A DNA stretch of 22,652 nt from a virus. Taxonomy: Duplodnaviria > Heunggongvirae > Uroviricota > Caudoviricetes. A program made the position numbers and the translations under genes. Location of the stretch: IMG/VR virus record IMGVR_UViG_2859827302_000003; one strand, given 5' to 3'. The notes under the pieces are model-generated. The model did no database searches, had not been told where the DNA came from, and saw nothing but the letters and a program-made list of their open reading frames with translations. Of the stretch, positions 10,506-12,240 are shown piece by piece (within the stretch, counting starts at the first letter, position 1; each line of letters opens with the position of its first letter).

Positions 10506-10779
10506 GTTTTTCTCCTTAATTAAGGTTGAGCGAACCCCTGCCATTGCTGGCATATAAGAATGAAACCGGATATTTATTACGGAACTGTTTTAAAGACCTG
10601 CCGGGATTTCGTTATTATCATGGTGAATAACTTTATCGACCGGATAACAGTAAGGCAGTATGACTTTCCGTGAGACAGATGCTGGCCAACGTGGGATATT
10701 TAACGCGGGTTAACATCGTTGTCAGAGCCGCATGGGTGAGCTGTTGCTACACCCCGGTATTTCCACCACGGAGGCCAGC

Positions 10780-11907
10780 ATGAACAACAATAACACATTG
10801 TACGTCGGGTTAGATGTTCACAAAGAATCGATTACTGTCGCTTATGCTATCAATTCAGAACCTGTTGAACTGATGGGTAAAATTGGCACATCACCTACTG
10901 ATATTCAGAATCTTTGTAAACGTCTCAGGTCAAAGTCATCGCAGGTCAGTATCGTTTATGAAGCGGGGCCCTGTGGTTATGGACTTTATCGTCGGCTGGT
11001 GAAATCCGGTTTTGACTGCATGGTCTGCGCCCCCTCACTTATCCCGAAAAAACCGGGGGAGCGGGTTAAAACCGATCGCCGTGATGCCATCAGACTTGTG
11101 CGTTCACTGCGTGCAGGAGATCTTTCTGCTGTCTACGTACCCGGCATTGAAGATGAGGCATTCCGGGATTTGGCCCGGGCATGGGCATCTGCCCGCGATG
11201 ATTTACGGCATGCAAGGCAACGTCTGAAATCGTTTCTTCTGGTTCATGGGGTCCATTATGTCGGGCGAGCAGATTGGGGCCCTGCACACCGACGCTGGCT
11301 CAGCAAATACTCATTCGAAAGTCCCTGGCGACAATTAGCTTTTGACGAACACCGTCGTACAATAGAAGACCGGCAGGCACAATGTGAACGGCTGGAATCC
11401 GCCCTGAAGGAGGCCGTTACCGAATGGAGGCTGTATCCGGTAGTAGAGGCGCTGCAAGCCATGCGAGGGATTCAGTTTATTACTGCGGTTGGATTAATTT
11501 CTGAACTGGGTGATCTGACCCGTTTTGAACATCCACGACAACTGATGTCATGGTTTGGTATCACGCCATCAGAATATTCATCGGGTGGAAGCAGACATCA
11601 GGGCAGCATTACCAAAGCCGGAAACAGCTATGCCAGAAAGCTATTGGTCGAGGCAGCGTGGAGTTACCGTCATCCGGCACGCATCAGTCCGGCAATACAA
11701 AAAAGGCAGGAAAATTTACCCCGCCCCGTCATTGACAGAGCATGGGATGCTCAACTCAGGCTCTGTAAGAGGTATCGAAAACTTCAGGCCAAAGGAAAGA
11801 ATGTCAATATTACAATTGTTGCTGTTGCACGTGAGCTGGCGGGTTTTATCTGGGATATGGGCCGAATAGCAATGTCTGTCGCACAACAACCACAATGTCA
11901 CAAATAA
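10780..11907 (+). CDS. IS110-family transposase/recombinase (DEDD-type), about 375 aa
   Basis: Start placed at MNNNNTLYVGLDVHK with GGAGG 6 nt upstream; C-terminal ...GITPSEYSSGGSRHQGSITKAGNSYARKLL... typical of the family. Confidence 0.8.
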   Translation: MNNNNTLYVGLDVHKESITVAYAINSEPVELMGKIGTSPTDIQNLCKRLRSKSSQVSIVYEAGPCGYGLYRRLVKSGFDCMVCAPSLIPKKPGERVKTDRRDAIRLVRSLRAGDLSAVYVPGIEDEAFRDLARAWASARDDLRHARQRLKSFLLVHGVHYVGRADWGPAHRRWLSKYSFESPWRQLAFDEHRRTIEDRQAQCERLESALKEAVTEWRLYPVVEALQAMRGIQFITAVGLISELGDLTRFEHPRQLMSWFGITPSEYSSGGSRHQGSITKAGNSYARKLLVEAAWSYRHPARISPAIQKRQENLPRPVIDRAWDAQLRLCKRYRKLQAKGKNVNITIVAVARELAGFIWDMGRIAMSVAQQPQCHK

Positions 11908-11933
11908 AAAATGAGAATAACCAGTTCCCTGAA

Positions 11934-12104
11934 GGCGACGTAGCCCGGTACAAGAGTAACCCACGTTAGCGCTTGGCGACGGCGGAACAAAGCTGATTCG
12001 CGACGTAAGAAAGTGGCAGGCTCATATGACGGACCTCTGTAATGCGGTATCCAACCCGCGAATATCAGCGTGATTCACCGTCGGATTTACTGCTACGTCG
12101 CCCT
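11934..12104 (+). ncRNA. Candidate structured non-coding RNA in the right end of the IS110-family element (bridge-RNA-like); strand and ends unverified
   Basis: 265-bp non-coding right end; long-range complementarity ggcgacgtagc (11934-11944) / gctacgtcgcc (12094-12104) and nested gacgg/ccgtc; internal 10-mer atatcagcgt (12062-12071) identical to the right insertion junction. Confidence 0.25.
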
Positions 12105-12240
12105 CAGGGAATTAAACCTAAAAAGAAAATCGTCAAAATTAGAGATTCCGGTTTGACACGGAAAGTCATATCAGCGTACAGCCTGAACCGTCTGGTCAGA
12201 ATCTGACGAATTAGACAAAGTGGTGTCCACCAAATAAGTA

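What the first reader, a model, noticed from the sequence alone, without database searches (positions are those of the whole stretch)
10640..12179. IS110-family element inserted precisely inside the terminal inverted repeat of an IS66-family element
The element (14-bp subterminal inverted repeats TATGACTTTCCGTG, flanked by ag on both sides) splits the sequence gta|ag...ag|cgtacagcc; removing it and one ag restores GTAAGCGTACAGCC, the exact left terminus of the IS66-family element present in three copies here. IS110/IS1111-group elements are known for sequence-specific targeting (some target transposon inverted repeats), so this looks like an IS that homes to another IS end.
Basis: partly seen in the sequence, partly recalled or inferred. 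Interest (0 to 1): 0.7.

Follow-up and report, generated by a model that had tools for sequence, protein, structure and literature searches.

The report
ISSso6 inserted in an IS66-family end

Summary
A 1520-bp element (10655-12174) has perfect 14-bp subterminal inverted repeats and splits the left tip of an ISEc22-like IS66-family element. Removing it and one AG restores the intact terminus exactly over 305 nt.

RefSeq annotation names the element ISSso6. It encodes a 375-aa DEDD transposase of the IS110 family.

About 20 distinct sites of ISSso6 and near-identical copies share the target (C)GTAAG^CG(Y)(T)AAC. Eight to fourteen are tips of at least four different IS66-family elements, left and right ends. 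Four are ordinary chromosomal sites (speC, tkt, a gene 3' end, upstream of nhaA). For three of these four the uninterrupted site was found in other E. coli genomes, showing simple insertion with no duplication.

The 267-nt region downstream of the transposase gene folds into a conserved RNA. One internal loop carries two segments matching the target: GUUAGCGCUU pairs with the top strand, ACGUAAG with the bottom strand. Across 14 related elements with different targets, both segments change with their flanks (0 of 20,000 permutations reach the observed match).

So this is seekRNA/bridge-RNA-guided insertion. The IS66 preference follows from a short guide-specified motif. Element and mechanism are known. 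I found no published statement of this target.

The parts
10650..10654 (+). GTAAG: first 5 bp of the left terminal repeat of the ISEc22-like IS66-family element, displaced by the insertion. 10653-10654 (AG) is the core dinucleotide shared with the ISSso6 right end.
   Evidence: exact restoration. Copy 1 of the same element starts GTAAGCG directly after its 8-bp duplication.
10655..12174 (+). ISSso6, 1520 bp. The boundaries are ambiguous by the 2-bp AG core, so 10653-12172 is equally valid.
   Evidence: 100% identical copies in Shigella plasmids, and RefSeq names it 'IS110-like element ISSso6 family transposase'. Uninterrupted sites in E. coli show simple insertion without duplication.
10655..10658 (+). 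Left-end extension GCAG outside the subterminal repeat (ACAG or TCAG in relatives).
10659..10672 (+). Left subterminal inverted repeat TATGACTTTCCGTG.
   Evidence: Identical in relatives with 73-95% transposase identity.
10780..11907 (+). Transposase gene: a 375-aa DEDD recombinase with the C-terminal motif G-x-x-P-x4-S-G (GITPSEYSSG, residues 260-269).
   Evidence: Pfam PF01548 and PF02371; NCBIfam NF033542; weak match to IS621 and ISCro4 transposase structures; D12, E61, D99, D102, S268 and G269 are invariant among relatives.
11924..12112 (+). Structured core of the predicted seekRNA/bridge RNA, closed by a 20-bp stem (11924-11944 with 12092-12112).
   Evidence: Single-sequence fold -88 kcal/mol, z = -4.84. 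The consensus fold of 14 relatives has 50 pairs, 7 of them with compensatory changes.
11965..11974 (+). Guide A, GUUAGCGCUU: pairs with the target top strand AAG^CG(C/T)TAAC, covering the core and the right flank. It lies on the 5' side of an internal loop.
   Evidence: It changes with the right flank in relatives (57/84 paired against 38.3 +/- 3.4 when shuffled; 0 of 20,000 shuffles reach it).
11961..12016 (+). Target-binding loop module: outer stem CCAC/GUGG (11961-64 with 12013-16), the two guides on opposite sides of the loop, and an inner hairpin (11976-12001).
   Evidence: The outer stem changes to CCGC/GCGG in relatives, and the inner stem also has compensatory changes.
12003..12009 (+). 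Guide B, ACGUAAG: identical to the target top strand (C)GTAAG, so it pairs with the bottom strand of the left flank and core. It lies on the 3' side of the same loop.
   Evidence: 44/70 identical against 23.9 +/- 3.9 when shuffled; 0 of 20,000.
12062..12068 (+). AUAUCAG: candidate donor guide, identical to the tip of the right end plus core. Assignment is tentative.
   Evidence: Conserved in relatives, whose right ends are also conserved. No covariation is available to test it.
12153..12158 (+). TTGACA: a consensus -35 hexamer. After circularisation it would lie 17 bp upstream of CAGTAT (10656-10661), forming a junction promoter.
   Evidence: from sequence only. The parallel is the junction promoter shown for ISEc11 (PMC11187229).
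12157..12170 (+). Right subterminal inverted repeat CACGGAAAGTCATA.
12171..12174 (+). Right-end extension TCAG; 12173-12174 is the AG core.
12175..14610 (+). Remainder of the interrupted ISEc22-like IS66-family element: rest of the left repeat from CGTACAGCC, tnpA 12241-12642, tnpB 12639-12986, tnpC 13035-14573, right repeat ending at 14610.
   Evidence: Pfam; RefSeq name 'IS66-like element ISEc22 family transposase' at 99.7% identity; repeats.

Best explanation
The element is ISSso6, an IS110-family insertion sequence of the IS1111 type. It has a DEDD recombinase gene, 14-bp subterminal inverted repeats, and a long non-coding region downstream of the gene. That region encodes a structured RNA (a seekRNA, also called a bridge RNA). 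One internal loop of the RNA presents two short guides. GUUAGCGCUU pairs with the top strand of AAG^CG(Y)TAAC, and ACGUAAG pairs with the bottom strand of (C)GTAAG. The recombinase-RNA complex most likely acts on a circular copy of the element and exchanges strands at the shared AG dinucleotide. The result is insertion in one orientation between GTAAG and CG, with no target duplication. GTAAGCG is the conserved tip of IS66-family terminal repeats, and such tips are abundant and harmless to interrupt in Shigella and enteroinvasive E. coli. Most surviving copies therefore sit in IS66-family ends, including the ISEc22-like element here. Shown here: the anatomy, the simple insertion, the recurrent target, the conserved RNA fold, and the covariation between guides and targets. 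Inferred from the family: that the RNA is expressed and bound by the recombinase, that a circular intermediate with a junction promoter forms, and how the element's own ends are recognised.
For: Identity and protein family. The supplement of Durrant et al. 2024 lists ISSso6 as IS1111 group with a bridge RNA predicted in the right end.

Exact restoration of the IS66 tip.

Target census: 28 copies at about 20 distinct sites, all reading (G/A)TAAG | CG... apart from a few degraded, deleted or nested junctions.

Uninterrupted speC, tkt and nhaA-upstream sites at 300/300 nt in thousands of E. coli genomes.

In more distant relatives only the AG next to the left end is conserved, so GTAAG belongs to the target and not to the element.

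RNA: z = -4.84 for the single sequence. In the consensus fold both guides lie in one internal loop between stems that show compensatory changes.

Guide-target covariation in 14 element types: p <= 5e-5 for each guide. Examples: Mycetohabitans has guide AGGGGGCUU and target AAG|CCCCC; Paraburkholderia oxyphila (L023) has ACACAGCUA and TAG|CTGTG.

The order, with the top-strand match 5' of the bottom-strand match, is the one reported for IS1111-type seekRNAs (PMC11187229).

Per-site pairing of the ISSso6 guides.
Against: There is no expression or binding data for this RNA, and Rfam has no matching family. The guides that should read the element's own ends could not be identified with confidence. 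One variable RNA block (12024-12029) has no partner. Two of the 14 relatives (L022, L061) match guide A poorly, at 3-4 of 9 positions. The ISEc22 left tip pairs with only 6 Watson-Crick plus 1 wobble positions of guide A yet is occupied at least 5 times, so pairing strength alone does not explain site usage. The transposase is 375 aa, and its significant BLASTP match to the ISEc11 transposase is 25% identity over 129 C-terminal residues. It is therefore an atypical IS1111-type member.
Confidence: 0.85

Rival explanations
1. ISSso6 has been selected specifically to home into IS66-family termini as a neutral, multi-copy, horizontally travelling safe haven. Under this reading the chromosomal sites are off-targets. 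Something beyond the roughly 8-bp motif, such as a feature of IS66 ends or their transposition intermediates, raises use of these tips.
For: Eight confirmed and about six probable of roughly 20 distinct sites are IS66-family tips, from at least four different IS66-family elements and from both left and right ends. The 95%-identical Salmonella relative sits in the same repeat-like sequence. The ISEc22 left tip is used at least 5 times despite weak guide-A pairing. A random 7-mer should occur about 570 times in a 4.7-Mb genome, far more often than IS66 tips do.
Against: The only perfect 10/10 match to guide A is a native site upstream of nhaA. Insertions in speC, tkt and a gene 3' end carry the motif without any IS66. 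Survivorship can produce the same enrichment, because hits in genes are lost and hits in IS ends are neutral. IS-to-IS recombination can also spread an occupied tip. Nine GTAAGCG sites in the window are unoccupied, five of them IS66-family tips.
Confidence: 0.3
2. The recombinase protein alone recognises the target, as in classical site-specific recombination, and the non-coding region is only a regulatory or structural part of the right end.
For: The subterminal repeats and end extensions are almost invariant among relatives, which would fit protein recognition of the ends. No RNA data exist for this element.
Against: Two short non-coding segments change together with the left and right flanks across 14 relatives whose transposases are 71-90% identical. 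They lie in an internal loop of a conserved fold. For family members ISEc11, ISKpn4, ISPa11 and IS621, dependence on the RNA and reprogramming through it were shown experimentally (PMC11187229, PMC11208160).
Confidence: 0.04
3. The juxtaposition is secondary: the IS66-family element transposed next to a resident ISSso6, or homologous recombination between IS copies created the junction. In that case nothing targeted the IS66 end.
For: The interrupted ISEc22 copy lacks the 8-bp duplication; its flanks are GGATAACA and GGTTATCC. So this region has been rearranged. L009 combines the nhaA left flank with an IS66 right flank.
Against: The first 5 bp of the IS66 repeat lie on the far side of ISSso6, which a neighbouring IS66 insertion cannot produce. 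The same split at the same nucleotide recurs in different IS66-family elements and different flanks.
Confidence: 0.03

Closest known systems
ISEc11 (IS1111 family; Prosseda 2006; Siddiquee et al. 2024, PMC11187229)
   Same: It occurs in the same hosts (Shigella and enteroinvasive E. coli) and lies next to ISSso6 in L001. It has subterminal inverted repeats and a long non-coding region downstream of the transposase gene that encodes a seekRNA, with the top-strand match 5' of the bottom-strand match. It inserts in one orientation without target duplication. A -35 hexamer in the right end suits a junction promoter.
   Different: It is a different element: 1443 bp, a 339-aa transposase and target GTGAAAATACTG. 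ISSso6 is 1520 bp with a 375-aa transposase and target GTAAG^CG. The significant BLASTP match between the two transposases is 25% identity over 129 C-terminal residues.
IS4321 / IS5075 (IS1111 family; Partridge & Hall 2003, cited in PMC11208160; paper not held, so from general knowledge)
   Same: These are IS1111-type elements that insert at one position and in one orientation inside the terminal inverted repeats of another class of mobile element.
   Different: Their target is the 38-bp repeat of Tn21-family transposons, a long site. ISSso6 reads a shorter motif (about 8-12 bp) at the extreme tip of IS66-family elements and also uses non-IS chromosomal sites.
IS621 and its bridge RNA (IS110 group; Durrant 2024 PMC11208160; Hiraizumi 2024 PMC11208158; PDB 8WT6)
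   Same: It is a DEDD recombinase with the PF02371 domain. Its structured RNA has an internal loop whose two sides pair with opposite strands of the target around a 2-nt core.
   Different: In IS621 the RNA is encoded in the left end, upstream of the gene, the guide order is left then right, the core is CT and the subterminal repeats are only 2-3 bp. In ISSso6 the RNA lies downstream, the order is reversed, the core is AG and the repeats are 14 bp. The protein match is weak (E = 2e-5, C-terminal domain only).
ISKpn4 / ISPst6 / ISPa25 (IS1111-attC group) and ISPa11 (REP-targeting)
   Same: These IS1111-type elements are directed by a seekRNA to short sequences that recur in the genome as parts of other repeated genetic elements.
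   Different: Their targets are integron attC sites or REP sequences rather than the ends of another insertion sequence.

Membership tests
IS110 family (DEDD RNA-guided recombinases) | N-terminal DEDD (RuvC-like) catalytic domain | tested here: met
   PF01548, E = 2.4e-11, residues 9-153. D12, E61, D99 and D102 are invariant among relatives.
IS110 family (DEDD RNA-guided recombinases) | C-terminal PF02371 domain with the G-x-x-P-x4-S-G motif | tested here: met
   PF02371, E = 8e-24. GITPSEYSSG at residues 260-269 (alignment); G260, P263, S268 and G269 are invariant. The motif is as described in PMC11187229.
IS110 family (DEDD RNA-guided recombinases) | Curated family model passed | tested here: met
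   NCBIfam NF033542 'IS110 family RNA-guided transposase', 273.9 bits against a cut-off of 140.
IS110 family (DEDD RNA-guided recombinases) | Site- and orientation-specific insertion without target-site duplication | tested here: met
   Joined flanks of three occupied sites are found uninterrupted at 300/300 nt in E. coli genomes. Only the AG core is shared between the two junctions.
IS110 family (DEDD RNA-guided recombinases) | Circular intermediate with a promoter assembled at the joined ends | not testable with these tools
   The sequence is compatible: TTGACA, 17 bp, then CAGTAT across the predicted junction. No experiment was possible.
IS1111 group | Subterminal inverted repeats of 7-17 bp | tested here: met
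   14-bp perfect repeats, set in by 4 nt at each end. The range is taken from PMC11208160.
IS1111 group | The longer non-coding region, and the RNA, lie downstream of the transposase gene | tested here: met
   267 nt downstream against 125 nt upstream. The structured RNA is at 11924-12112. Listed as 'RE / IS1111' in the Durrant supplement.
IS1111 group | In the RNA, the segment pairing with the target top strand lies 5' of the segment pairing with the bottom strand | tested here: met
   Guide A (11965-74, pairs with the top strand) precedes guide B (12003-09, pairs with the bottom strand). The criterion is from PMC11187229.
IS1111 group | Transposase of 330-350 aa clustering closely with IS1111 relatives | tested here: inconclusive
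   The protein is 375 aa. Its significant BLASTP match to the ISEc11 transposase is 25% identity over 129 C-terminal residues. It is about 20-24% identical to the curated set. I built no phylogeny.
IS1111 group | Characteristic terminal extensions beyond the repeats (7 bp at the left end according to PMC11187229) | tested here: inconclusive
   The left extension is 4 bp (GCAG), or 6 bp if the AG core is counted on the left. The right extension is 4 or 2 bp. This does not match 7 bp, but the convention depends on where the core is assigned.
seekRNA / bridge-RNA guided recombination | Guide segments covary with target flanks among relatives | tested here: met
   Guide A against positions +1 to +6: 57/84 against 38.3 +/- 3.4. 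Guide B against positions -7 to -3: 44/70 against 23.9 +/- 3.9. Zero of 20,000 permutations reach either value.
seekRNA / bridge-RNA guided recombination | Guides presented in an internal loop of a conserved RNA fold | tested here: met
   Consensus fold of 14 sequences. The stems flanking the loop show compensatory changes (columns 42/94 and 57/79).
seekRNA / bridge-RNA guided recombination | A second set of guides reads the element's own ends (donor) | tested here: inconclusive
   The candidates are AUAUCAG (12062-68) and UACUGC (12088-93). Ends and candidates are both conserved, so covariation cannot test them. Variable block C has no partner.
seekRNA / bridge-RNA guided recombination | The RNA is expressed, binds the recombinase and is required for transposition | not testable with these tools
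   Shown for ISEc11, ISPa11, ISKpn4 and IS621 in the literature, not for ISSso6.

The most novel reading that the evidence does not exclude
The ISSso6 lineage may be a dedicated hyperparasite of IS66-family elements, with guides tuned to the one sequence shared by all IS66-family tips. Occupation would reversibly disable the IS66 end, and the element would ride IS66 copies between replicons. Its RNA also carries a third, rapidly changing block (12024-12029) whose partner is unknown and which could be an additional programmable determinant not described for bridge RNAs or seekRNAs.
Probability: 0.15. Interest if true: 0.55.

Novelty: already known. Interest (0 to 1): 0.3.

Why it matters
ISSso6 is catalogued in ISfinder and named in RefSeq annotation. 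RNA-guided targeting by IS110/IS1111 elements has been established since 2024, and IS1111-type elements that sit in the terminal repeats of other transposons have been known since 2003. The finding therefore explains an odd-looking nested IS rather than revealing a new system.

Three modest points may be new. I found no published statement that ISSso6 targets GTAAG^CG, the tip of IS66-family elements. The two target guides are now mapped to the nucleotide. The ISSso6 lineage also offers a natural series of elements with identical ends, 71-95% identical recombinases and differently programmed guides, which could be useful to people engineering bridge recombinases.

For Shigella genomics, the target rule predicts where ISSso6 can land. 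Those places include speC and tkt, and IS66-family ends, which it probably inactivates.

Tried and rejected
1. ISEc11. I first suspected the element was ISEc11. It is not: ISEc11 is 1443 bp, encodes 339 aa and targets GTGAAAATACTG, and its transposase shares only a 129-residue, 25%-identity C-terminal match with this one.

2. Rfam. A scan of 10500-12400 at E <= 1 returned nothing.

3. Natural retargeting in E. coli hits H11-H15. These cover only nt 1-1333 of the element, which looked like a diverged 3' end. They are copies truncated by another IS and carry frameshifts.

4. GTAAG as part of the element. It is conserved at the left junction even in relatives with 78-95% transposase identity, which raised this possibility. 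It was rejected because more distant relatives keep only AG and because uninterrupted sites contain a single GTAAG or ATAAG.

5. The 10-nt identity ATATCAGCGT (12062-71) with the right junction. The CGT part does not change in Mycetohabitans, whose flank is CCCCC. Only ATATCAG is kept, as a candidate donor guide.

6. CUCAUAUGAC (12021-30). It is 9/10 complementary to the right end, but that block varies among relatives with identical ends, so it is probably coincidence.

7. A partner for variable block C. Searches of the bases after guide B, the junction strands, the target flanks and both ends found no signal above permutation.

8. Target duplication of the interrupted ISEc22 copy. None is present.

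9. Origin of the window. It is not the virulence plasmid: 7800-10654 is lambdoid prophage DNA.

10. Literature. Searches for ISSso6, for IS1111 with IS66, and for IS110 with IS66 and terminal repeats found no description of this target. Partridge & Hall 2003 is not held.
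Full report
**Observation.** The window contains a 1520-bp element at 10655-12174. It is bounded by perfect 14-bp subterminal inverted repeats: TATGACTTTCCGTG at 10659-10672 and CACGGAAAGTCATA at 12157-12170. The left junction reads ggataaca-GTA-AG-GCAG-TATGAC and the right junction reads GTCATA-TC-AG-CGTACAGCC. Joining 10650-10654 to 12175-12474 reproduces 5357-5661 exactly, 305 of 305 nt. That stretch is the left end of an IS66-family element. This element has a complete copy at 5357-7797 with an 8-bp duplication GCTCCTTC, the interrupted copy, and a partial inverted copy at 15163-16783. 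Its genes have the tnpA, tnpB and tnpC domains of IS66, and RefSeq.7%-identical copies 'ISEc22 family'. The 'gta' is at 10650-10652, not 10640. The shared AG lies 4 nt outside the left repeat and 2 nt outside the right repeat.

**Identity.** The open reading frame 10780-11907 encodes a 375-aa protein with the DEDD transposase domain PF01548 and the PF02371 domain. It passes the NCBIfam model 'IS110 family RNA-guided transposase' at 273.9 bits against a cut-off of 140. It matches the solved IS621 and ISCro4 transposases weakly. Copies of the whole element at 99-100% identity occur in Shigella dysenteriae, boydii, sonnei and flexneri plasmids and in some E. coli. RefSeq annotates them as 'IS110-like element ISSso6 family transposase'. 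ISSso6 appears in the curated sets of both 2024 papers on RNA guidance in this family. Durrant et al. list it as IS1111 group with a bridge RNA predicted in the right end. It is not ISEc11, which is 1443 bp, encodes 339 aa and targets GTGAAAATACTG. The significant BLASTP match between the two transposases is 25% identity over 129 C-terminal residues.

**Where other copies sit.** I read the junctions of 28 copies of ISSso6 and near-identical relatives. They came from the window, a S. dysenteriae virulence plasmid, ten chromosomal places found through the exact protein, ten further E. coli and Shigella records, and relatives in Salmonella (95% transposase identity) and Serratia (90%). They reduce to about 20 distinct sites.
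- All intact junctions read (N)GTAAG (once ATAAG) | element | CG(T/C)...
- At least five sites are left tips of ISEc22-type elements with different outer flanks.
- Others are an ISSfl3 left tip, the left tip of a third IS66-family element (L009), and the right tip of a fourth (L105).
- Several flanks have the same repeat-like form, GTAAGCGTYAACSGA...CCGYATTGACG.
- Four sites are ordinary chromosomal DNA: inside speC, inside tkt, at the 3' end of a TerC/CorC-domain gene, and upstream of nhaA.

For speC, tkt and nhaA I joined the two flanks and found the uninterrupted sequence, 300 of 300 nt in one piece, in thousands of E. coli genomes. The insertion is therefore simple, with no duplication, and GTAAG belongs to the target. 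This is confirmed by 80 more distant relatives, mainly Burkholderiaceae, with transposase identity of about 71-81% for those whose junctions could be read. They keep nearly identical subterminal repeats but have quite different left flanks, and only the AG next to the element is conserved.

**Mechanism.** The 267-nt region downstream of the gene folds far better than shuffled controls: -88 kcal/mol, z = -4.84. An alignment of this region from 14 element types is highly conserved except for short blocks. The consensus fold has a 20-bp closing stem (11924-11944 with 12092-12112). Within it is an internal loop bounded by an outer stem, CCAC/GUGG in ISSso6 and CCGC/GCGG in relatives, and by an inner hairpin that also shows compensatory changes. 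The two sides of this loop are the two most variable blocks.
- The 5' block in ISSso6 is GUUAGCGCUU (11965-11974). It is the reverse complement of AAGCGCTAAC, so it can pair with the target top strand from position -3 to +7.
- The 3' block is ACGUAAG (12003-12009). It is identical to the target top strand at -7 to -1, so it can pair with the bottom strand.

Both blocks change with the flanks in relatives. Mycetohabitans has AGGGGGCUU next to AAG|CCCCC. Serratia has UUGACGCUU next to AAG|CGTTA. Paraburkholderia oxyphila (L023) has ACACAGCUA next to TAG|CTGTG. L022 has GAACAAG next to a left flank GAACAAG.

I left out the core positions and compared true pairings with 20,000 random re-pairings of elements and flanks. 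The 5' block paired at 57 of 84 positions against 38.3 +/- 3.4. The 3' block matched at 44 of 70 positions against 23.9 +/- 3.9. No permutation reached either value. Having the top-strand match 5' of the bottom-strand match is the order reported for IS1111-type seekRNAs and the reverse of IS110-type bridge RNAs. Applied to the ISSso6 sites, the 5' guide pairs as follows:
- 10 of 10 positions with the nhaA-upstream site;
- 9 plus one G-T wobble with GTAAGCGTTAAC sites;
- 8 plus one wobble with two IS66-family tips;
- 6 plus one wobble with the ISEc22 left tip;
- 6 with the ISSfl3 tip.

The G that faces position +3 explains why C or T is accepted there.

**What is inferred rather than shown.** These points rest on experiments with ISEc11, ISPa11, ISKpn4 and IS621, not on ISSso6: that the RNA is made and bound by the recombinase, that the element moves through a circle, and that strand exchange occurs at the AG core. 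The sequence is compatible with a junction promoter. A consensus TTGACA at 12153-12158 would lie 17 bp upstream of CAGTAT once the ends are joined, and this hexamer is conserved in relatives. I could not assign the guides that should read the element's own ends. AUAUCAG (12062-68, equal to the right tip plus core) and UACUGC (12088-93, complementary to the left tip) are candidates only. Ends and candidates are both conserved, so covariation cannot test them. A further variable block (12024-12029) lies in the multi-branch junction of the fold and has no partner that I could find.

**Does it home to IS66 ends?** In effect, yes. Most surviving copies are in IS66-family tips, from several different elements and from both ends. 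But the determinant is a short motif written in the guide RNA, and the element also uses that motif elsewhere. The best match to the guide is a native chromosomal site that is empty in more than 4100 E. coli genomes. The window itself holds nine unoccupied GTAAGCG sites, five of them IS66-family tips. IS66 tips are enriched over the several hundred random GTAAGCG sites expected in a genome. That enrichment could reflect selection of the guides for this target, survivorship (hits in genes are lost, hits in IS ends are neutral), local hopping in IS-rich DNA, or spread of occupied tips by recombination between IS copies. These data cannot separate those explanations, so I treat dedicated IS66 homing as a rival with moderate probability. 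Interrupting the tip most likely disables that IS66 end, by analogy with IS4321 and IS5075 in Tn21-family repeats. This is inference.

**Comparison and novelty.** The closest known systems are these:
- ISEc11: same hosts and same architecture, with an experimentally shown seekRNA.
- IS4321 and IS5075: IS1111-type elements that target the terminal repeats of another transposon class.
- The attC- and REP-targeting IS1111 members.
- IS621: the same principle, with the RNA at the other end and the guide order reversed.

ISSso6 meets the tested defining features of the IS110 family and most of those of the IS1111 group. The exceptions are that its transposase is longer and more divergent than typical IS1111 members and that its terminal extensions do not match the stated 7 bp. 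The element and the mechanism are already known. I found no paper stating its target, but ISfinder and the unpublished target logos of PMC11187229 may contain it.

**Verdict.** It is of modest interest as a well-resolved natural example of guide reprogramming.

Noticed in passing
L007 3878-4100 and L008 3878-4056 (equivalent to window 11970 and 12014): A complete ISSso6 is followed by a 205-nt (L007) or 161-nt (L008) repeat of its own 3' end. The repeat begins exactly at GTTAG|CGCTTGG, inside the DNA coding guide A, or at GAAAG|TGGCAGG, just after the DNA coding guide B. The guide core AGCGCU is a palindrome, so the element's own guide-coding DNA resembles its target (6 Watson-Crick plus 1 wobble positions). 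This looks like self-insertion followed by recombination. Hit H1 (two pieces spanning 1859 bp) may be the same kind of structure.
   Followed up: partly
window 12024-12029 (alignment A2, columns 104-109): A third hypervariable block in the non-coding RNA lies in the multi-branch junction. It differs in almost every relative, yet no covarying partner was found in the flanks, the element ends or other RNA strands.
   Followed up: partly
window 10642-10649 and 14611-14618: The interrupted ISEc22 copy has no 8-bp target duplication. Its flanks GGATAACA and GGTTATCC are near reverse complements of each other. This suggests a rearrangement between IS copies after insertion. Copy 1 has a clean duplication, GCTCCTTC.
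   Followed up: no
window 14658-15163 (- strand): The left end of a different IS66-family element (GTAAGCGTAAACTGACCGCCGTAT, the same as in L009) with an HTH_Tnp_1 open reading frame truncates the third ISEc22 copy at 15163. Its tip is an unoccupied ISSso6 target.
   Followed up: no
L001 4290-4330: The ISSfl3 left end carries a tandem duplication of its 20-bp tip (GTAAGCGCCCCATCAGCGAC, twice). ISSso6 sits in the outer copy, and ISEc11 interrupts the same ISSfl3 further in.
   Followed up: no
L011, L003, L007 (speC); L006 (tkt); L002: In Shigella-type genomes ISSso6 interrupts speC (ornithine decarboxylase; the same site in three assemblies) and a transketolase gene. It also lies at the 3' end of a TerC/CorC-domain gene.
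   Followed up: partly
L100 and L009 (upstream of nhaA): The native E. coli sequence GACGGCTGTAAGCGCTAACGGG upstream of nhaA is a perfect 10/10 match to guide A. It is uninterrupted in more than 4100 complete E. coli genomes. In L009 the same left flank is joined, across ISSso6, to an IS66-family end, which implies recombination between ISSso6 copies.
   Followed up: partly
L010 3896 and L106 1920: Short deletions of target DNA lie directly at the right junction: 7 bp (CGTACAG) missing from an ISEc22 tip, and 6 bp (CGTTAA) missing in L106, which also has AA instead of AG.
   Followed up: no
window 7800-10654 and 17100-22652: The surrounding DNA is a degraded lambdoid prophage, not the virulence plasmid. 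It includes RecE/exonuclease VIII, Gam- and YebW-like DNA, a tail-fibre DUF4376 protein and a metallophosphatase. An IpaH-type NEL E3 ligase gene lies at 18743-20458 (-), and its leucine-rich repeats account for the 60-nt tandem repeats at 19910-20149. Two inverted IS1 copies lie at 2959-3726 and 20846-21613.
   Followed up: partly
L022 and L061 (Paraburkholderia): In two relatives the 5' guide ends in ACAU and matches the observed right flank (GCTT...) at only 3-4 of 9 positions, with mismatches at the same two places, while the 3' guide matches well. They may sit at non-cognate sites or use a different register.
   Followed up: no
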